DNA of 64,000 nt from Escherichia coli (GTDB taxonomy: Bacteria; Pseudomonadota; Gammaproteobacteria; Enterobacterales; Enterobacteriaceae). Under the pieces are notes generated by a model. That model ran no database searches and had not been told where the DNA came from. It saw only the letters and a list, made by a program, of their open reading frames with translations. The stretch lies in NCBI RefSeq assembly GCF_003018235.1, contig NZ_CP027437.1. One strand, written 5' to 3'. Numbering within the stretch: the stretch's first letter is position 1; each line of letters begins with the position of its first letter. Below are positions 9,152 through 25,746 of the stretch, piece by piece. The translations under genes were made by a program, and so were the position numbers.

Positions 9152-10175
<1,024 letters not shown>

Positions 10176-16024: not shown

Positions 16025-17532
16025 TGGCAATTCTTGATGATGTGATTGGCGTTTTTTCACCAGGATGGAAAGCGGCAAGGCTGCGTTCCCGAGCGGTGAT
16101 CCAAGCTTATGAGGCCGTAAAAACGACGCGGACACACAAAGCCCGACGGGAGAACCGAACTGCCGACCAGTTAAGCCAGTACGGGGCCGTGTCGTTACGT
16201 GAGCAGGCCCGTTACCTTGATAACAACCACGATCTGGTCATTGGTGTATCTGACAAGCTGGAAGAACGGGTGGTGGGGAAAAACGGGATTATTGTCGAGC
16301 CACATCCGGTATTACGCAATGGTGCCATTGCCCGTGACCTGGCAGCGGAGATACGTACCCGATGGAGTGAATGGTCTGTCAGTCCGGAAGTCACCGGGCA
16401 GTTTACCCGTCCGATGCTGGAACGTCTGATGCTGCGTACCTGGCTGCGCGATGGTGAGGTGTTTGCCCAGATGGTTTCCGGGCGCATAAACAGCCTGACG
16501 CCTTCTGCCGGTGTTCATTTCTGGCTGGAGGCGCTCGAGCCGGACTTTATTCCCATGACCAGTGATGAGAGCAACAGGCTGAATCAGGGCGTGTTTGTTG
16601 ATGACTGGGGGCGTCCCGAAAAATATCTGGTGTATAAAAGTCGTCCTGTATCCGGACGGCAGATGGAAACCAAAGAAGTGGATGCAGAGCGAATGCTGCA
16701 TCTTAAATTTGTTCGCCGTCTGCACCAGATGCGCGGGACGTCTTTATTGTCCGGTGTGCTGATCCGCCTCAGCGCCCTGAAAGAGTATGAAGATTCTGAG
16801 CTGACTGCAGCAAGGATCGCCGCTGCTCTGGGGATGTACATCCGGAAAGGCGACGGACAGAGCTATGAAACGGATGGTAATGACAGCAAGGAGAATGAAC
16901 GCGAGCTTACCATTCAGCCAGGCATTATTTACGACGATCTGAAACCCGGCGAAGAAATCGGAATGGTGAAGTCGGATCGTCCCAATCCTAACCTTGAAAC
17001 TTTTCGTAATGGTCAGTTGCGTGCCGTGGCGGCGGGCAGTCGTCTGAGTTTTTCCAGTACGGCACGCAACTATAACGGCACTTACAGCGCCCAGCGTCAG
17101 GAACTGGTTGAGTCTACTGATGGCTACCTGATCCTGCAGGACTGGTTTATTGGTGCCGTCACCCGCCCGATGTATCGTGCCTGGCTGAAACAGGCTGTGG
17201 CATCCGGTGTTATCAGGCTACCCCGCGATCTTGACCGTTCTTCACTGTATACCGCGGTGTATTCCGGACCAGTGATGCCGTGGATTGACCCTGTTAAGGA
17301 GGCTGAGGCCTGGAAAATCCAGATTCGTGGTGGAGCGGCGACAGAATCAGACTGGGTACGTGCTGGTGGTCGTAATCCGGATGATGTCAAACGTCGGCGC
17401 AAGGCCGAAATTGATGAAAACCGCAAGCTGGATCTGGTATTTGATACCGATCCGGCCAGTGATAAAGGAGGCAGCAGTGCCGCAACGAAACGACAGGAGC
17501 CGCAGCACACCGACGACCAGTCCGAAGAATAA
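16024..17532 (+). CDS. Portal protein (lambda gpB family)
   Basis: 503 aa, start overlaps gpW stop by 1 nt; position and size fit a portal. Confidence 0.88.
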   Translation: MAILDDVIGVFSPGWKAARLRSRAVIQAYEAVKTTRTHKARRENRTADQLSQYGAVSLREQARYLDNNHDLVIGVSDKLEERVVGKNGIIVEPHPVLRNGAIARDLAAEIRTRWSEWSVSPEVTGQFTRPMLERLMLRTWLRDGEVFAQMVSGRINSLTPSAGVHFWLEALEPDFIPMTSDESNRLNQGVFVDDWGRPEKYLVYKSRPVSGRQMETKEVDAERMLHLKFVRRLHQMRGTSLLSGVLIRLSALKEYEDSELTAARIAAALGMYIRKGDGQSYETDGNDSKENERELTIQPGIIYDDLKPGEEIGMVKSDRPNPNLETFRNGQLRAVAAGSRLSFSSTARNYNGTYSAQRQELVESTDGYLILQDWFIGAVTRPMYRAWLKQAVASGVIRLPRDLDRSSLYTAVYSGPVMPWIDPVKEAEAWKIQIRGGAATESDWVRAGGRNPDDVKRRRKAEIDENRKLDLVFDTDPASDKGGSSAATKRQEPQHTDDQSEE

Positions 17533-17545
17533 TTCCTGGTTCAGG

Positions 17546-19504
17546 ATGCAGGCTGGTCACCAGAGTGACGCGGATATTTATATTTATGACGAGATTGGTT
17601 TCTGGGGTGTTACAGCGAAGCAGTTTATCAGTGATCTGAATGCACTGGGCGATATCACCCACATTAATCTCCATATTAATTCACCGGGTGGCGATGTCTT
17701 TGAAGGCATCGCCATTTTTAATGCGCTGAAAACACATGGTGCGTCCATTACCGTTTATGTCGACGGTGTGGCGGCGTCAATGGCGTCGGTCATTGCGATG
17801 GTGGGAAACCCGGTCATTATGCCGGAAAACACTTTCATGATGATTCATAAACCATTTGGCTTTACGGGCGGTGATGCGGAGGACATGCGCACCTATGCCG
17901 ACCTGCTCGATAAAGTTGAGGCGGTTCTGTTACCCGCTTATGCACAGAAAACCGGGAAAACCACCGATGAAATTGCTGCCATGCTGGCGGATGAGACCTG
18001 GATGTCCGGTGCCGAATGTCTGGCACATGGATTTGCTGATCAGGTAACGCCAGCCGTTAAGGCAATGGCATGTATTCAGTCAAAACGTACAGAGGAATTT
18101 AAAAAGATGCCGGAATCCATTCGAAACATGATTACTCCGCCACGCAACAGTGCTCCACGCGTACAGGATGATGAACCTGCAGCCTCCCGGACGCCAGTGC
18201 AGGCAGCAGCACCCGTGGTGGATGAAAACAGTATCCGTGCGCAGGTACTGGCAGAGCAAAAAGCGCGTGTAAACGGTATTAATGATCTGTTTGCCATGTT
18301 TGGCGGGCGTTATCAGACTCTGCAGGCTCAGTGTCTTGCCGATCCTGAATGTTCGCTGGAGCAGGCCCGCGAAAAGCTGTTGAACGAGATGGGGCGCGAG
18401 TCCACGCCATCCAATAAAAATACCCCGGCTCATATTTATGCCGGTAACGGTAATTTTGTGGGGGACGGGATCCGCCAGGCGCTGATGGCGCGTGCCGGAT
18501 TTGAAAAAACCGAACGTGATAATGTCTACAACGGGATGACCCTGCGTGAATATGCCCGTATGTCACTGACTGAACGGGGTATTGGGGTTTCCAGTTATAA
18601 CCCGATGCAGATGGTCGGTGCGGCGTTCACACACAGTACGTCTGACTTCGGTAATATTCTGCTGGATGTTGCGAACAAAGCCATTCTGCAGGGCTGGGAA
18701 GATGCTCCTGAAACCTATGAACAGTGGACGCGGAAAGGTCAGTTGTCTGATTTTAAAATTGCCCATCGTGTGGGTATGGGGGGCTTCAGTGCTCTGCGTC
18801 AGGTGCGTGAAGGGGCGGAATATAAATACGTCACCACCGGAGATAAACAGGCCACTATTGCACTGGCGACCTATGGCGAGCTGTTCAGTATCACCCGTCA
18901 GGCCATTATCAATGATGATCTGAATATGCTGACCGATGTCCCGATGAAGCTGGGCCGTGCGGCGAAATCCACCATTGCCGATCTGGTTTATGCCATTCTG
19001 ACGTCTAACCCGAAAATCTCCACAGATAATGTAAGTCTGTTCGATAAAGCGAAACATGCAAACGTACTGGAGAGCGCTGCAATGGACGTGGCATCGCTGG
19101 ATAAAGCCCGCCAGTTGATGCGCGTTCAGAAAGAGGGGGAGCGTCATCTGAATATTCGTCCTGCGTTCGTACTGGTACCGACGGCGATGGAGTCTGTTGC
19201 TAACCAGGTCATTCGCTCCTCAAGTGTCAAGGGGGCTGACATTAACGCCGGTATTATTAACCCGGTGAAAGATTTTGCGACCGTTATTGCAGAGCCTCGT
19301 CTTGATGATAACAGCCAGACCACCTTCTACCTGGCTGCGTCCAAAGGCTCCGATACGATTGAAGTGGCTTATCTCAACGGTGTGGATACGCCATATATTG
19401 ATCAGATGGAGGGCTTCAGTGTGGATGGCGTGACAACGAAAGTGCGTATTGACGCCGGTGTCGCGCCAGTTGATCACCGCGGTCTGGTGAAATGTACGGC
19501 GTAA
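17546..19504 (+). CDS. Fused ClpP/S49-like prohead protease, scaffold region and HK97-fold major capsid protein
   Basis: N-terminal ClpP-like region, Ala/Pro-rich linker, C-terminal capsid-like domain; 652 aa from the first ATG after the portal stop. Confidence 0.8.
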   Translation: MQAGHQSDADIYIYDEIGFWGVTAKQFISDLNALGDITHINLHINSPGGDVFEGIAIFNALKTHGASITVYVDGVAASMASVIAMVGNPVIMPENTFMMIHKPFGFTGGDAEDMRTYADLLDKVEAVLLPAYAQKTGKTTDEIAAMLADETWMSGAECLAHGFADQVTPAVKAMACIQSKRTEEFKKMPESIRNMITPPRNSAPRVQDDEPAASRTPVQAAAPVVDENSIRAQVLAEQKARVNGINDLFAMFGGRYQTLQAQCLADPECSLEQAREKLLNEMGRESTPSNKNTPAHIYAGNGNFVGDGIRQALMARAGFEKTERDNVYNGMTLREYARMSLTERGIGVSSYNPMQMVGAAFTHSTSDFGNILLDVANKAILQGWEDAPETYEQWTRKGQLSDFKIAHRVGMGGFSALRQVREGAEYKYVTTGDKQATIALATYGELFSITRQAIINDDLNMLTDVPMKLGRAAKSTIADLVYAILTSNPKISTDNVSLFDKAKHANVLESAAMDVASLDKARQLMRVQKEGERHLNIRPAFVLVPTAMESVANQVIRSSSVKGADINAGIINPVKDFATVIAEPRLDDNSQTTFYLAASKGSDTIEVAYLNGVDTPYIDQMEGFSVDGVTTKVRIDAGVAPVDHRGLVKCTA

Positions 19505-21180: not shown

Positions 21181-21924
21181 ATGACCACACCAAATCCACT
21201 GGCAAAGACGAAAGGTGCGGGGACGACGTTCTGGATGTATACCGGCAACGGCGATGCGTTTGCGAACCCTTTGTCGGACACTGACTGGCTGCGTCTTGCG
21301 ATGGTGAAGGATCTGCAACCTGGCGAAATGACCGCTGATGCAGAAGATGACACTTATCTCGATGATGAAGATGCAGACTGGAAAACGACAACCCAGGGGC
21401 AGAAATCCGTTGGTGATACTTCGGCGACGCTGGCCTGGCGTCCGGGTGACAGCGGGCAGAAAAAACTGGTTCAGTTGTTCGACTCCGGTGAAGTCTGCGC
21501 GTTTCGTATCAAATATCCCAACGGCACTGTTGATGTTTTCCGTGCCTGGCTGAGCTCACTGGGTAAAACCATTGCCTCAAAAGACGTGATGACCCGCACT
21601 GTGAAAATCAGCGGTGTGGGGCGTCCGTATCTGGCAGAGGAAGGCACTGAAACCGTGAGCGTTACCGGGCTGACAGTATCACCGGCGTCTGCCAGTGTAA
21701 AAGTGGGAGCAACCACCACGCTGACCTTTACAGTAAAACCTGACGGAGCCAGTGACAAAGCGATCAGTGTGCATTCGTCAGATCCACAGACTGCCACGGT
21801 TACCCTGAACGGACTTGTGGCCACGGTAAAAGGCGTGAAGCAGGGCAGTGTCAGCATTGTGGGCATGACCGCTGACGGGAATTTTGTGGCTGTGACTGCG
21901 GTGACTGTCAGCGCAGCAGGTTAA
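21181..21924 (+). CDS. Major tail protein V with C-terminal Ig-like (Big_2) domain
   Basis: 247 aa with SD aaggagg; C-terminal VTGLTVSPASASVKVGATTTLTFTVKP... is Ig-like. Confidence 0.85.
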   Translation: MTTPNPLAKTKGAGTTFWMYTGNGDAFANPLSDTDWLRLAMVKDLQPGEMTADAEDDTYLDDEDADWKTTTQGQKSVGDTSATLAWRPGDSGQKKLVQLFDSGEVCAFRIKYPNGTVDVFRAWLSSLGKTIASKDVMTRTVKISGVGRPYLAEEGTETVSVTGLTVSPASASVKVGATTTLTFTVKPDGASDKAISVHSSDPQTATVTLNGLVATVKGVKQGSVSIVGMTADGNFVAVTAVTVSAAG

Positions 21925-21944: not shown

Positions 21945-21968
21945 GCCCCGGTTATGCGGGGCTTTTTT
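21945..21968 (+). terminator. Intrinsic terminator/attenuator between V and G
   Basis: Hairpin gccccg-gttat-gcgggg followed by tttttt. Confidence 0.6.
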
Positions 21969-21984
21969 GCAGGTGGAGAACATG

Positions 21985-22371
21985 ATGTTTCTGAAACAGG
22001 ACACGTTTAATTATGAAAAACAGTCCGTGGTGCTCAGTGAGCTGTCCGGGCTGCAGAGAATTGAATATCTGACGTTTGTTCAGCAGCGAACGGCAAAGTT
22101 TGATGCCGGGGAGGGAGAACTGCCGGAGGCTGAACGACAGATTGCTTTTCTGCGGATGGGGATGGATATCAATGCCTGGCTGGTTTCCCGCTCACTGTGG
22201 AATGCGGATCAGTCTAAGGATGTAGAGACGCTTTGCGCATCCGTTATTACAACATGGTCGTATGATGCCCTGGGTGCGGGGGCGGAGATGGTTCTGTCGC
22301 TGAGCGGTATGGGGGCCATTGATAATGCCGTGGATGATGAGCATGAGGCGCTGACGCCGGAAAAGTCCTGA
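21985..22371 (+). CDS. Tail assembly chaperone G
   Basis: MFLKQDTFNYEKQSVVLSELSGLQRIEYL... resembles lambda G (MFLKTESFEHNGVTVTLSELSALQRIEHL). Confidence 0.85.
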   Translation: MFLKQDTFNYEKQSVVLSELSGLQRIEYLTFVQQRTAKFDAGEGELPEAERQIAFLRMGMDINAWLVSRSLWNADQSKDVETLCASVITTWSYDALGAGAEMVLSLSGMGAIDNAVDDEHEALTPEKS

Positions 22372-22709
22372 CGCGGGAAATGCAGTTTGTCATGCGGCTT
22401 GCCCGGGAGTTCCGGCGGGCAGACTGGCGGCGGATGCTGTCGGAAATGTCGGCCACTGAGCTTGGTGAGTGGGGCGATTATTTCCGGATGCAGAGCTTCA
22501 GTGATGTGTGGATGGATGCGCAGTTTGCCTCGCTGAAGGCATTGATCGTGATAATGGTGTCCGGCAGCAGTGATGCTGCGGTGGCTGATTTCAGCCTTTT
22601 ACCGGAAGAGAACGGGATACCGGAGCGAACGGACGAAGAACTGATGCATCTTGGGGAAGGTATTTCCGGAGGTGTGCGTTATGGAGCAGATAGCCAACCT
22701 GGTCATTGA
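21985..22709 (+). CDS. Tail assembly chaperone G-T, made by a -1 programmed frameshift near the end of G
   Basis: The T frame (22347-22709) is -1 relative to G and overlaps the last 8 codons of G; candidate slip site ggaaaag at 22359-22365. Confidence 0.6.
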
Positions 22710-25700
22710 TTTGGGGATTGATGCGGCAGAGTTTAAAAATGAAATTCCCCGTATCAAAAACCTTCTGAATGGTGCAGCCAGCGATGCAGAACGGTCTTCT
22801 GCCCGTATGCAGCGTTTTATGGAGCGTCAGACTCAGGCCGCCCGGCAGACAACGCAGGCAGCTTCTTCGGCTGCAACAGCCGCATCCGTCCATGCGCAGA
22901 CGGTGGAGAAGAACGCACAGGCTCATGAACGCATGGCCCGCGAGGTGGAGAAAACCCGCCAGCGCATGGAGGCACTGAGCCAGAAAATGCGCGAGGAACA
23001 GGCGCAGGCCATGGCTCTGGCGGAGGCTCAGGATAAAGCGGCTGCTGCGTTTTATCGTCAGATTGACAGTGTGAAACAGGCCAGTGCGGGGCTGCAGGAA
23101 TTACAGCGTATTCAGCAGCAGATCCGACAGGCCAGAAACAGTGGCGGGATTGGTCAGCAGGATTATCTGGCGCTGATTTCTGAGGTTACTGCGAAAACCC
23201 GTGTTCTTACACAGGCTGAGGAAGAGGCTACCCGACAGAAAGTGGCGTTTATCCGTCAGCTTAAAGAGCAGGCAACCCGCCTGAATCTTTCATCTTCTGA
23301 GTTGCTTCGTGCTAAGGCAGCCCAGCTGGGGGTAAGCAGTGCTGCAGAAGTGTATATCCGCAAAATGGAGCATGCAGGAAAAGCCACGCATTCGCTGGGT
23401 CTGAAAAGTGCATCAGCCCGCCAGGAGATAGGCGTTCTGATAGGTGAACTGGCCCGCGGCAATTTAGGGGCGCTGAGGGGATCCGGGATAACGCTGGCTA
23501 ACCGTGCCGGATGGATAGACACACTGATGTCACCGAAAGGCATGATGCTTGGCGGGGTTATTGGCGGTATTGCCGCGGCCGTCTATGGTCTGGGTAAAGC
23601 CTGGTATGACGGTCAGAAGGAGGGGGAAGAATTTAACCGCCAGTTGTCGCTGACGGGGCATTATGCCGGAGTCACTGCCGGGCAGCTGTGGACGCTCAGT
23701 CGTGCTATTTCCGGGAATGGTATCACGCAACATGCTGCAGCCGGTGCGCTGGCTCAGGTGGTGGGGAGTGGTGCATTTCGTGGAAACGATATCGGTATGG
23801 TGGCGAGAGCTGCCGCACAGATGGAGCGATCGGTTGGCCAGTCGGTCAGCGATACCATAAATCAGTTTAAGCGGCTGAAGGATGATCCTGTAAATGCCGC
23901 GAAGGCTCTGGACAATGAGCTGCATTTTCTTACTGCCACTCAGCTTGAGCAGATACGCGTCCTTGGGGAGCAGGGGCGGTCCAGTGATGCTGCACGGATA
24001 GCCATGTCTGCACTGGCAGAGGAAACCGGTCGGCGTACTGCGGATATTGATAATAACCTCAATGCGCTTGGCAGTACGCTGAAGTATCTGTCTGATTTGT
24101 GGAGTCGTTTCTGGGATGCGGCCATGAATATTGGTCGTGAAGACTCGCTGGATGAACAGATTGCCGCTTTACAGGAGAAAGTGTCGCGGGCGAAAAGACT
24201 CCCCTGGACGGCATCATCTTCTCAGGTTGAATACGATCAGCAGCGTCTTAACGATCTTCAGGAGAAAAAACGCCAGAAGGATTTGCAGGATGCAAAAGAG
24301 CAGGCAGAGCGGAATTATCAGGAGCAACAGAAACGCCGTAATGCTGAAAATGCTGCACTGAACCGGATGAATGAAACGGAAGCAGCACGACATCAGCGTG
24401 AAATTGCGCGTATTAATGCCATGCAGTACGCCGATCAGGCTGTCAGGGATGCGGCGATACAACGTGAAAATGAACGTTACGAGAAAGCCCTGGCATCCGG
24501 TAAGAAAAAAACACGCGAAACCCGTAATGATGAGGCCACCCGGTTATTGCTGCAGTACAGTCAGCAACAGGCACAGGTGGAAGGACAGATTGCTGCTGCC
24601 AGACAGTCAGTAGGCATTGCCACGGAAAGGATGACAGAAGCGCATAAACAGCTTCTGGCTCTGCAGCAGCGCATCAGCGACCTAGACGGGAAAAAACTTA
24701 CGGCAGATGAAAAGAGTGTGCTGGCCCGTAAAGATGAACTGATTCAGGCACTGACGCTGCTGGATGTAAAACAGCAGGAGCTTCAGAAACAGACGGCACT
24801 CAACGAGCTGAAGAAAAAAACAATTCAGCTGACCAGTCAACTGGCTGAAGAAGAGCGCGCTCAGCGTCAGCAACATGACCTGGATATCGCCACGGTGGGT
24901 ATGGGTGATCAGCAGCGACAGCGATATCAGGTACAACTGAGTCTTCGCCAGAAATACCAGCAACAGCTGGAGCAGTTGAGGCGGGATAGTGAGCAGAAAG
25001 GGACATATAACACGGATGACTACAGAAAGGCCGAGCAGGCGCTGACGGAGAGCCTGAACCGACAACTGAATGAGAATCGCCGTTACTGGCAACAGCTTGA
25101 AGTTGTGCAGGGTAACTGGAAAAACGGAGTCCTGCGTGCATTTCAGGATTTTACCGTGGATGCAGATAATACGGCAGAAACAGCAGAACAGGTGTTCTCG
25201 TCAGCCTTCAGCAACATGGGAAATGGCCTGGCAACTTTTGTCACTACCGGCAAACTCAATTTCAAATCCTTCACCTCTTCTGTGCTGTCAGATATGGCGA
25301 AAATCCTGGCGCAGGCAACCATGATGAAATCGATAAAAGGGATTGGCAGTGTACTGGGATTTGATCTCAGCAGCCTTTCCCTGAATGCCAATGGGGGGAT
25401 TTATCAGTCTGCTGATTTGAGTCGTTACAGTGGCACGGTGGTTAACCGTCCGACGTTTTTTGCTTTTGCAAAAGGCGCGGGTGTGATGGGGGAAGCGGGA
25501 CCTGAAGCCATTCTGCCATTGCGTCGTGGTGCTGACGGTAAGCTGGGGGTTGTGGCGGATATTGGGGGTTCAGGTATGGCGATGTTTTCCCCGCAGTACA
25601 ACATCGAGATCAATAACGATGGCACGAACGGGCAGATAGGTCCGGCTGCCCTGAAGGCGGTTTATGACCTCGGGAAAAAAGCGGCAGCGGACTTTATGCA

Positions 25701-25746
25701 ACAGCAGGCCCGTGATGGTGGTCGGTTAAGTGGAGCATATCGGTAA
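22681..25746 (+). CDS. Tail tape measure protein (gpH-like), 1021 aa
   Basis: Long coiled-coil-rich ORF; SD ggagg 8 nt upstream; start overlaps the end of T. Confidence 0.9.
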   Translation: MEQIANLVIDLGIDAAEFKNEIPRIKNLLNGAASDAERSSARMQRFMERQTQAARQTTQAASSAATAASVHAQTVEKNAQAHERMAREVEKTRQRMEALSQKMREEQAQAMALAEAQDKAAAAFYRQIDSVKQASAGLQELQRIQQQIRQARNSGGIGQQDYLALISEVTAKTRVLTQAEEEATRQKVAFIRQLKEQATRLNLSSSELLRAKAAQLGVSSAAEVYIRKMEHAGKATHSLGLKSASARQEIGVLIGELARGNLGALRGSGITLANRAGWIDTLMSPKGMMLGGVIGGIAAAVYGLGKAWYDGQKEGEEFNRQLSLTGHYAGVTAGQLWTLSRAISGNGITQHAAAGALAQVVGSGAFRGNDIGMVARAAAQMERSVGQSVSDTINQFKRLKDDPVNAAKALDNELHFLTATQLEQIRVLGEQGRSSDAARIAMSALAEETGRRTADIDNNLNALGSTLKYLSDLWSRFWDAAMNIGREDSLDEQIAALQEKVSRAKRLPWTASSSQVEYDQQRLNDLQEKKRQKDLQDAKEQAERNYQEQQKRRNAENAALNRMNETEAARHQREIARINAMQYADQAVRDAAIQRENERYEKALASGKKKTRETRNDEATRLLLQYSQQQAQVEGQIAAARQSVGIATERMTEAHKQLLALQQRISDLDGKKLTADEKSVLARKDELIQALTLLDVKQQELQKQTALNELKKKTIQLTSQLAEEERAQRQQHDLDIATVGMGDQQRQRYQVQLSLRQKYQQQLEQLRRDSEQKGTYNTDDYRKAEQALTESLNRQLNENRRYWQQLEVVQGNWKNGVLRAFQDFTVDADNTAETAEQVFSSAFSNMGNGLATFVTTGKLNFKSFTSSVLSDMAKILAQATMMKSIKGIGSVLGFDLSSLSLNANGGIYQSADLSRYSGTVVNRPTFFAFAKGAGVMGEAGPEAILPLRRGADGKLGVVADIGGSGMAMFSPQYNIEINNDGTNGQIGPAALKAVYDLGKKAAADFMQQQARDGGRLSGAYR

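What the first reader, a model, noticed from the sequence alone, without database searches (positions are those of the whole stretch)
22347..22380. G-T tail chaperone frameshift site with a non-canonical heptamer
The T frame overlaps the last 8 codons of G in the -1 frame. The only candidate slip site in the overlap is G GAA AAG (ggaaaag, 22359-22365), not lambda's G GGA AAG. That needs tRNA-Glu to re-pair on GGA, a middle-position mismatch, or slippage by tRNA-Lys alone (AAG to AAA). The G/G-T ratio may therefore be set differently from lambda.
Basis: partly seen in the sequence, partly recalled or inferred. Interest (0 to 1): 0.4.

Follow-up and report, generated by a model that had tools for sequence, protein, structure and literature searches.

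The report
Known variant G-T tail frameshift site
This is the ribosome slip site that lets a lambda-like prophage of E. coli make its G-T tail-assembly fusion protein; its slightly off-rule sequence GGAAAAG is real and clearly under selection, but it is the usual slip site in a large group of lambda-like phages and was already marked as such in the phage N15 record, so it is ordinary.

Summary
The lambda-G homolog ends at 22371. The T homolog lies in the -1 frame and is open only from 22347. The only in-phase slip candidate in that 25-nt overlap is G GAA AAG (22359-22365), at the position of lambda's G GGA AAG.

It is not peculiar to this window. The same heptamer sits at the junction in 20 of 29 sequence clusters of T-family loci, including N15, phi80, HK225, mEp237, mEp043, LLS, Gifsy-2 and mEp460/cdtI. 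GenBank already annotates GGAAAAG as the -1 slippery sequence in N15 and LLS.

Synonymous positions are fixed across clusters:
- GAA in 22 of 22.
- AAG in 24 of 29.
- First G in 21 of 22, across four codon families.

This favours two-tRNA slippage. tRNA-Glu would re-pair on GGA through a middle G·U pair, and tRNA-Lys would move from AAG to AAA.

I found no downstream RNA structure. A weak GAGG lies 10 nt upstream. The ATG at 22380, which databases use as the T start, is not conserved.

The G:GT ratio cannot be computed. In vitro work rates this heptamer as less slippery than lambda's.

Verdict: real, functional, already known. Interest is low.

The parts
21181..21924 (+). Major tail tube protein (lambda V homolog with a C-terminal Ig-like domain)
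   Evidence: PF16461 E 7e-67 and PF02368 E 2e-12; annotated as major tail protein in mEp460
21945..21971 (+). Intrinsic-terminator-like hairpin plus T run between V and G
   Evidence: Six G-C pair stem followed by TTTTTT; annotated as a rho-independent terminator in mEp460 and Ayreon, and at the same place in N15 and HK225
21982..22371 (+). Tail assembly chaperone G (zero frame, 129 aa; PGAP starts it at the second ATG, 21985)
   Evidence: PF06894 E 4e-40; annotations
22344..22346 (+). TGA in the -1 (T) frame. This is the upstream limit for any G-to-T frame change
   Evidence: Read directly from the sequence
22345..22348 (+). Weak Shine-Dalgarno-like GAGG, 10 nt upstream of the heptamer. A possible stimulator, but unproven
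   Evidence: Anti-SD duplex -5.6 kcal/mol, and 11% of 8-mers in the G gene do as well. It is much stronger at the same place in sister clades (AAGGAGGT, GGAGG) and absent in the N15 type
22359..22365 (+). -1 slip site G GAA AAG. In the zero frame, Glu is in the P site and Lys in the A site; after the shift they sit on GGA AAA
   Evidence: the same heptamer is annotated as the slippery sequence in N15 and LLS
22365..22709 (+). T part of the GT fusion, read in the -1 frame from GTC (Val) at 22365 to the stop at 22707-22709. The predicted GT protein is 21982-22365 joined to 22365-22706, 242 aa, with junction ...ALTPEK|VLTREMQF...
   Evidence: PF06223 E 5e-14; translations; alignment A1
22380..22382 (+). 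ATG used as the T start in all database annotations. Probably just an internal Met of GT
   Evidence: Annotated as the start. Relatives have CTG, CTT or ATT here, and an invariant Glu codon lies upstream of it and beyond the G stop
22681..25746 (+). Tape measure protein (lambda H homolog). Its start overlaps the end of T
   Evidence: PF06791, PF09718 and PF24622

Best explanation
This is the programmed -1 ribosomal frameshift site of a lambda-type G/GT tail assembly chaperone pair, in an mEp460/cdtI-type lambdoid prophage of E. coli. Most ribosomes read G to its stop at 22369-22371. A minority slip back one base when tRNA-Glu is on GAA in the P site and tRNA-Lys is on AAG in the A site. tRNA-Lys (the single E. 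coli species) re-pairs on AAA. tRNA-Glu re-pairs on GGA with G:C, a middle G·U pair, and A:U. Translation then continues with GTC CTG ACG... to give a 242-aa GT fusion with junction ...TPEK-VLTRE.... By homology with lambda, the G part of GT binds the tape measure protein and the T part recruits the tail tube protein.

What is shown: the gene identities, the frame arrangement, the positional homology, and purifying selection on all seven bases.

What is inferred: that the shift actually occurs, the two-tRNA mechanism, and the efficiency. The efficiency is probably lower per ribosome than on lambda's G GGA AAG unless sequence context compensates.
For: - Pfam assignments and the V-G-T-H gene order.
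- T is open only from 22347 and carries no other slip candidate.
- T-family homology (K-[VA]-L-x-x-E-[LM]-x-F-...-LAREF) begins right after the Lys codon and upstream of the annotated ATG.
- GGAAAAG is at the junction in 20 of 29 clusters (90% identity clusters) drawn from 96 loci, down to 43% T identity and with different flanking codons.
- Synonymous positions are fixed. GAA is used in 22/22 clusters against 55% gene-wide (P 2e-6). AAG is used in 24/29 against 36% (P 4e-7).
- The first base is G in 21/22 clusters, across CCG, GCG, GTG and CTG codons, against 49% gene-wide (P 4e-6).
- Plaque-forming or inducible phages carry this heptamer: mEp460 and Ayreon, and N15, phi80, HK225, LLS and Gifsy-2.
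- GenBank annotates GGAAAAG as the -1 slippery sequence in N15 and LLS.
- The Atkins et al. 2016 review lists G_GA as a known near-cognate X_XX class and NNA_AAG as a known shift type.
Against: - No GT protein has been observed here, and I found no published measurement for a GGAAAAG phage.
- In a reconstituted E. coli system, AUG GAA AAG gave mainly zero-frame product and was used as the poorly slippery control (PMC6924986).
- In vivo, A_AAG without a stimulator was barely above background, 0.15% against 0.11% (PMC4066793).
- I found no stimulatory structure downstream (z -0.18 and -0.59).
- The cluster statistics treat related lineages as independent, so the P values are too small.
- Variants with poor P-site re-pairing exist in relatives (A GAA AAG, G GCA AAA), so re-pairing of tRNA-Glu is not obligatory in the family.
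Confidence: 0.85

Rival explanations
1. The site works by slippage of tRNA-Lys alone (the hexanucleotide or tetranucleotide type, NNA_AAG, as in IS1222 and B. subtilis cdd). tRNA-Glu would not need to re-pair. The product is the same GT protein.
For: AAA at heptamer positions 4-6 is the only part invariant in 29/29 clusters. Relatives with A GAA AAG and G GCA AAA keep the A-site slip but have little P-site pairing. A_AAG is the best tetramer in E. coli. CGA_AAG sites are used naturally.
Against: The first base G and the GAA codon are both fixed at synonymous positions. Slippage of tRNA-Lys alone would not select for that. Tetramer-only sites need a strong stimulator, and none is visible here.
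Confidence: 0.25
2. T is made on its own from the ATG at 22380, as every database annotation implies, and no frameshift is needed.
For: mEp460, cdtI and PGAP/RefSeq all annotate a separate T CDS starting at this ATG. A G-rich stretch (GGGAA, 22375-22379) precedes it.
Against: The ATG is replaced by CTG, CTT or ATT in most related clusters. GGG ends only 2 nt before the ATG, which is too close for a normal ribosome binding site (read from the sequence). An invariant Glu codon and the conserved K-[VA]-L-x-x-E segment lie upstream of the ATG and beyond the G stop, so they are conserved as -1 frame protein. Heptamer conservation at synonymous sites would be left unexplained. In lambda, T is made only as GT (the review, describes the gpGT fusion).
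Confidence: 0.05
3. The frame change is made at the RNA level, by RNA polymerase slippage on the A run, not by the ribosome.
For: Some tail chaperone and dnaX homologs in other organisms use transcriptional slippage on long A runs.
Against: The run here is only four A. The cases described use runs of about 8-10 A. The conserved AAG and first G fit codon-anticodon logic, not run length.
Confidence: 0.02

Closest known systems
Phage lambda G / GT (-1 frameshift at G GGA AAG)
   Same: The gene order V-G-T-H and the Pfam families are the same. T is in the -1 frame overlapping the 3' end of G. The slip site sits at the homologous position, with its Lys codon 5 codons before the conserved E-L-x-F-A-L-K-LARE segment. 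There is no evident RNA stimulator.
   Different: The third base of the heptamer is A, not G. The P-site codon is therefore GAA (Glu) instead of GGA (Gly), and it re-pairs with a middle G·U pair. G ends one codon after the site instead of five. T is 38% identical.
Phage N15 genes 14/15, and their relatives phi80, HK225, mEp237, mEp043 and LLS
   Same: The heptamer G GAA AAG is identical and sits at the same junction. It is explicitly annotated as the -1 slippery sequence in the N15 and LLS GenBank records.
   Different: T is only 40-46% identical. The codon before the site is GCG or GTG rather than CCG. G continues for five more codons after the site. There is no Shine-Dalgarno-like sequence upstream.
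Salmonella prophage Gifsy-2 G / G+G' hybrid
   Same: The site and its immediate context are identical, ACG CCG GAA AAG TCC TGA, with GAGG at the same upstream distance. It is annotated as a frameshift hybrid.
   Different: T is 53% identical, and there is no ATG after the site.
Hexanucleotide NNA_AAG sites (IS1222 G_CGA_AAG, B. subtilis cdd A_CGA_AAG) and the IS3 A_AAG site
   Same: A -1 shift driven by the single E. coli tRNA-Lys moving from AAG to AAA.
   Different: Those sites have essentially no P-site re-pairing, and IS3 relies on a pseudoknot. Here P-site pairing is near-cognate and selected for, and no structure is seen.
G_GAN_NNN sites of eukaryotic RNA viruses (insect-specific flaviviruses, dianthoviruses, umbraviruses, mesoniviruses)
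   Same: The same near-cognate X_XX = G_GA class, in which a GAN-reading tRNA re-pairs on GGA (review).
   Different: Eukaryotic ribosomes, different A-site codons, and strong RNA stimulators.
E. coli dnaX (A AAA AAG with an upstream Shine-Dalgarno-like element and a downstream hairpin)
   Same: An AAG A-site codon. A G-rich anti-SD-complementary element lies 10 nt upstream: AGGGAG in the dnaX-mimic mRNA, GAGG here.
   Different: The element here is weak and is not conserved across the family. There is no hairpin. The expected efficiency is far lower.

Membership tests
Lambda-type tail assembly chaperone pair G/GT with programmed -1 frameshift | Two reading frames located between the major tail tube gene and the tape measure gene | tested here: met
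   V 21181-21924, G 21982-22371, T frame 22347-22709, H 22681-25746
Lambda-type tail assembly chaperone pair G/GT with programmed -1 frameshift | The upstream product is a gpG homolog and the downstream frame encodes a gpT homolog | tested here: met
   PF06894 E 4e-40; PF06223 E 5e-14
Lambda-type tail assembly chaperone pair G/GT with programmed -1 frameshift | T is in the -1 frame, overlaps the 3' end of G, and has no conserved start of its own | tested here: met
   Overlap is 22347-22371. The ATG at 22380 is not conserved, and conserved T-frame residues lie upstream of it
Lambda-type tail assembly chaperone pair G/GT with programmed -1 frameshift | A slippery sequence inside the overlap, conserved among relatives at the nucleotide level | tested here: met
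   GGAAAAG in 20/29 clusters and AAA in 29/29. Synonymous-site tests gave P 2e-6, 4e-7 and 4e-6
Lambda-type tail assembly chaperone pair G/GT with programmed -1 frameshift | The heptamer obeys the strict X XXY YYZ rule | tested here: not met
   G GAA AAG: the third base differs from the first two. This rule is not required for family membership. N15 is an accepted member with the same heptamer
Lambda-type tail assembly chaperone pair G/GT with programmed -1 frameshift | A GT fusion protein is made at a low fixed ratio to G and is needed for tail assembly | not testable with these tools
   Needs a reporter assay, mass spectrometry or genetics
Single-tRNA A_AAG / NNA_AAG -1 shift sites (IS3, IS1222, cdd) | An in-phase A_AAG read by the single tRNA-Lys | tested here: met
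   GAA AAG in the G phase
Single-tRNA A_AAG / NNA_AAG -1 shift sites (IS3, IS1222, cdd) | The P-site tRNA has no useful -1 pairing, so the bases before NNA are free to vary | tested here: not met
   GGA offers G:C, G·U and A:U pairing to tRNA-Glu. The first G (21/22) and GAA (22/22) are fixed
Single-tRNA A_AAG / NNA_AAG -1 shift sites (IS3, IS1222, cdd) | A strong downstream RNA stimulator | tested here: not met
   Folding of 22366-22445 gave z -0.18 and of 22320-22420 gave z -0.59
dnaX-type site with flanking stimulators | A Shine-Dalgarno-like element about 10 nt upstream | tested here: inconclusive
   GAGG at 22345-22348 has the right spacing but is weak (-5.6 kcal/mol; 11% of 8-mers in the G gene are as good). 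It is strong in two sister clades and absent in the N15 type
dnaX-type site with flanking stimulators | A stable hairpin a few bases downstream | tested here: not met

The most novel reading that the evidence does not exclude
In the mEp460/cdtI/Gifsy-2 branch, the weaker heptamer is compensated by an internal Shine-Dalgarno-like element placed 10 nt upstream, as in dnaX. This element is GAGG here, and AAGGAGGT or GGAGG in sister clades. Under this reading the G:GT ratio is tuned by the strength of that element and not by the heptamer. The N15/phi80 branch, which lacks the element, would run with a much lower GT fraction or use another context effect, such as the rare CCC codon that follows its site.
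Probability: 0.15. Interest if true: 0.35.

Novelty: already known. Interest (0 to 1): 0.12.

Why it matters
There is little new biology here. GGAAAAG has been marked as the slippery sequence in the public N15 record and again in LLS, and near-cognate G_GA sites are a described class.

Two modest points remain. First, about a third of complete E. coli genomes (1843 of 5426) carry this exact G/T junction, and RefSeq, mEp460 and cdtI all annotate T as a free-standing gene from a non-conserved ATG. That is probably wrong, and it hides the GT fusion from proteomic databases. Second, biochemists use this very heptamer as the 'poorly slippery' control (PMC6924986), yet many viable phages rely on it for a protein that, by homology with lambda GT, is needed for tail assembly. 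Measuring its in vivo efficiency in native context would say how much GT a lambdoid tail really needs.

Tried and rejected
- Downstream stimulatory structure. Folding 22366-22445 and 22320-22420 gave energies no better than shuffles (z -0.18, -0.59). The only hairpins are a 5-bp stem starting right at the end of the heptamer, which is too close, and stems more than 45 nt away inside the conserved LAREF coding segment.
- Upstream Shine-Dalgarno-like stimulator. It is present but weak in the window and not family-wide, so I kept it only as a lead.
- Search for annotated GT fusions of this type among 5.8 billion proteins. This returned only singletons in which G and T are joined by internal deletions of 8-28 residues, probably defective copies or assembly errors. 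It says nothing about slippage.
- Literature search for the heptamer. No phage paper mentions it. The only relevant hit is the in vitro EF-G study.
- Xu, Hendrix and Duda 2004 is not held in the library, so I could not check whether their table lists GGAAAAG for N15. I rely on the GenBank features instead.
- The PRFect supplement does not contain the heptamer. That its 'twofour' motif means XXYYYYZ is my inference from the name.
- Transcriptional slippage was rejected because the run is only four A.
- Independent initiation at 22380 was rejected on conservation grounds.

Full report
**What is there.** The region is the tail-assembly block of a lambdoid prophage.
- 21181-21924 encodes a lambda-type tail tube protein with an Ig-like domain.
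- 21982-22371 encodes a homolog of the lambda chaperone G (PF06894, E 4e-40).
- The -1 frame from 22347 to 22709 encodes a homolog of lambda T (PF06223, E 5e-14).
- 22681-25746 encodes a lambda-type tape measure protein.

The 901 bases around the site are 97-99.7% identical to 17 sequenced phages, including mEp460, cdtI, Tritos, Ayreon and phi458. The 231 bases around the junction occur in 1843 of 5426 complete E. coli genomes.

**Check of the observation.** G ends ...GAG GCG CTG ACG CCG GAA AAG TCC TGA. The -1 frame has a TGA at 22344-22346 and is open from 22347, so any G-to-T change must happen within 22347-22371. A scan for in-phase sites with three identical bases in the A-site position finds only G GAA AAG at 22359-22365. 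Lambda has G GGA AAG at the homologous place. The heptamer as a bare string is common, with 16 copies in the window against about 10 expected. Its meaning therefore comes from phase, position and conservation.

**Comparative evidence.** I collected the G/T junction from 15 annotated phage or genome records and from 80 IMG/VR loci found with a T-family alignment. T identity to the window ranged from 98% down to 43%. Anchored on the slip site and clustered at 90% identity, these give 29 clusters:

| Heptamer | Clusters | Notes |
|---|---|---|
| GGAAAAG | 20 | |
| GGCAAAA | 3 | |
| GGGAAAG | 2 | lambda type |
| AAAAAAG | 1 | Stx/Sakai type |
| CCCAAAA | 1 | a Vibrio phage |
| GGAAAAA | 1 | |
| AGAAAAG | 1 | |

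The sampling favours relatives of this window, so these are not population frequencies.

The GGAAAAG group includes N15, phi80, HK225, mEp237, mEp043, LLS, an Enterobacter Ravinvirus and Gifsy-2. The flanks differ among clusters. The preceding codon is CCG, GCG, GTG or CTG. The site is followed by TCC, CCC, CGC or a stop. The acidic tail of G upstream is poorly conserved (30-60% majority base). Within the heptamer, the majority base is shared by 79-100% of clusters.

Synonymous positions are fixed:
- The Glu codon is GAA in 22 of 22 clusters, against 55% in the rest of these genes.
- The Lys codon is AAG in 24 of 29, against 36%.
- The first base is G in 21 of 22, against 49% G at comparable third positions.

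The nominal probabilities are 2e-6, 4e-7 and 4e-6. They overstate the case because the lineages are related, but the direction is clear. All seven bases are under selection as nucleotides.

**T is not an independent gene.** Every annotation I saw for this phage type starts T at the ATG at 22380. That ATG is CTG, CTT or ATT in most related clusters. The segment K-[VA]-L-x-x-E, including an invariant Glu codon at +18/+19 from the heptamer start, lies upstream of the ATG and downstream of the G stop. It is therefore conserved as -1 frame protein. The G-rich stretch before the ATG ends only 2 nt from it.

**Mechanism.** The product predicted from a shift after decoding AAG is a 242-aa GT protein with junction ...ALTPEK|VLTREMQF.... 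tRNA-Lys moves from AAG to AAA, the classic E. coli shift. tRNA-Glu moves from GAA to GGA and keeps G:C and A:U pairs with a middle G·U pair.

Selection on the first G and on GAA argues that P-site re-pairing matters, which means two-tRNA slippage on a near-cognate heptamer. The Atkins et al. review lists G_GA as a known intermediate X_XX class and NNA_AAG as a known lower-efficiency type. Variants in relatives with poor P-site pairing (A GAA AAG, G GCA AAA) show that the tRNA-Lys shift is the indispensable part.

I found no RNA structure downstream. That matches lambda, where none is known (my own knowledge of Levin et al. 1993, which is cited). A GAGG lies 10 nt upstream, the same spacing as in the dnaX-mimic mRNA. 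It is weak here, strong in two sister clades, and absent in the N15 type.

**Efficiency.** This cannot be computed, but published data set expectations.
- In a reconstituted system, AUG GAA AAG gave mainly zero-frame product and served as the 'less slippery' control against G GGA AAG (PMC6924986).
- In vivo, A_AAG alone gave about 0.15% without a stimulator and 5.6% with the IS3 pseudoknot.
- In vivo, G_GGA_AAG gave 0.28% without a stimulator, 3.8% with the IS911 stimulators, and 43% with the IS3 pseudoknot.

**Comparison with what is known, and novelty.** The locus meets every testable defining feature of the lambda G/GT family except the strict X XXY YYZ rule, which accepted members such as N15 also break. 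The N15 record marks 10027-10033, which reads GGAAAAG, as 'slippery sequence for -1 translational frameshift'. The LLS record names 'minus-one programmed translational frameshift site GGAAAAG'. Gifsy-2 is annotated as a frameshift hybrid. The PRFect paper lists non-canonical motif classes for tail chaperone shifts and discusses tRNA-Glu re-pairing on GGA through G·U.

The finding is therefore correct, functional in all likelihood, and already known. What remains of practical value is that RefSeq-style annotation of this very common prophage gene pair omits the fusion.

Noticed in passing
window 21945-21971: A strong intrinsic-terminator-like hairpin (6 G-C pairs followed by TTTTTT) lies between the tail tube gene V and G. 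It could lower expression of G, GT and the tape measure protein relative to V. The same feature is annotated in mEp460, Ayreon, N15 and HK225.
   Followed up: partly
window 22380-22709, and RefSeq WP_001161009.1 in L015: PGAP, mEp460, cdtI and others annotate T as a separate 109-aa protein from a non-conserved ATG, with no slippage join. This is probably a systematic annotation gap affecting about 1800 complete E. coli genomes.
   Followed up: yes
window 22345-22347, and position -14..-12 in all related loci: An acidic codon (GAR/GAY) four codons before the P-site codon is kept in about 26 of 29 clusters, including the lambda, Stx and Vibrio types, although the rest of the G tail varies freely. 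The peptide pattern is E-[PA]-[VL]-[TS]-[AP]-[EG]-K. I cannot tell whether this conservation acts at the protein level or affects slippage.
   Followed up: partly
L053, L055-L060, L070, L072, L081, L085 (junction at about 898-913): In several related lineages the G stop codon follows the slip site immediately (GGAAAAA TAG, GGCAAAA TAG, AGAAAAG TAA, GGAAAAG TAG). A slowly decoded stop next to the shift codon might itself promote slippage. These are also the lineages with the poorest P-site re-pairing.
   Followed up: no
N15-type loci L003, L006, L012, L013, L014, L096, just after the heptamer: In the N15/phi80 group the heptamer is followed by CCC, a rare E. coli codon. [quoted passage not shown] This is a possible context effect in the branch that lacks any Shine-Dalgarno-like element.
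   Followed up: no
L030 1-1000 (IMGVR_UViG_2551306526_000001): A defective relative. A deletion joins an upstream 264-aa gene, which I did not identify, to the last approximately 18 codons of G, so the slip site and T survive without G.
   Followed up: partly
proteins P0001, P0002, P0003, P0018: Single-copy database proteins in which G and T are fused in one frame by internal deletions of 8-28 residues around the junction. They are either rare natural deletion variants or assembly errors.
   Followed up: partly
window 17285-19504: A 739-aa ORF combines a ClpP-type prohead protease region with what looks like the major capsid protein in one frame. It is annotated as 'head maturation protease' in mEp460 and 'protease/scaffold' in cdtI.
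   Followed up: no
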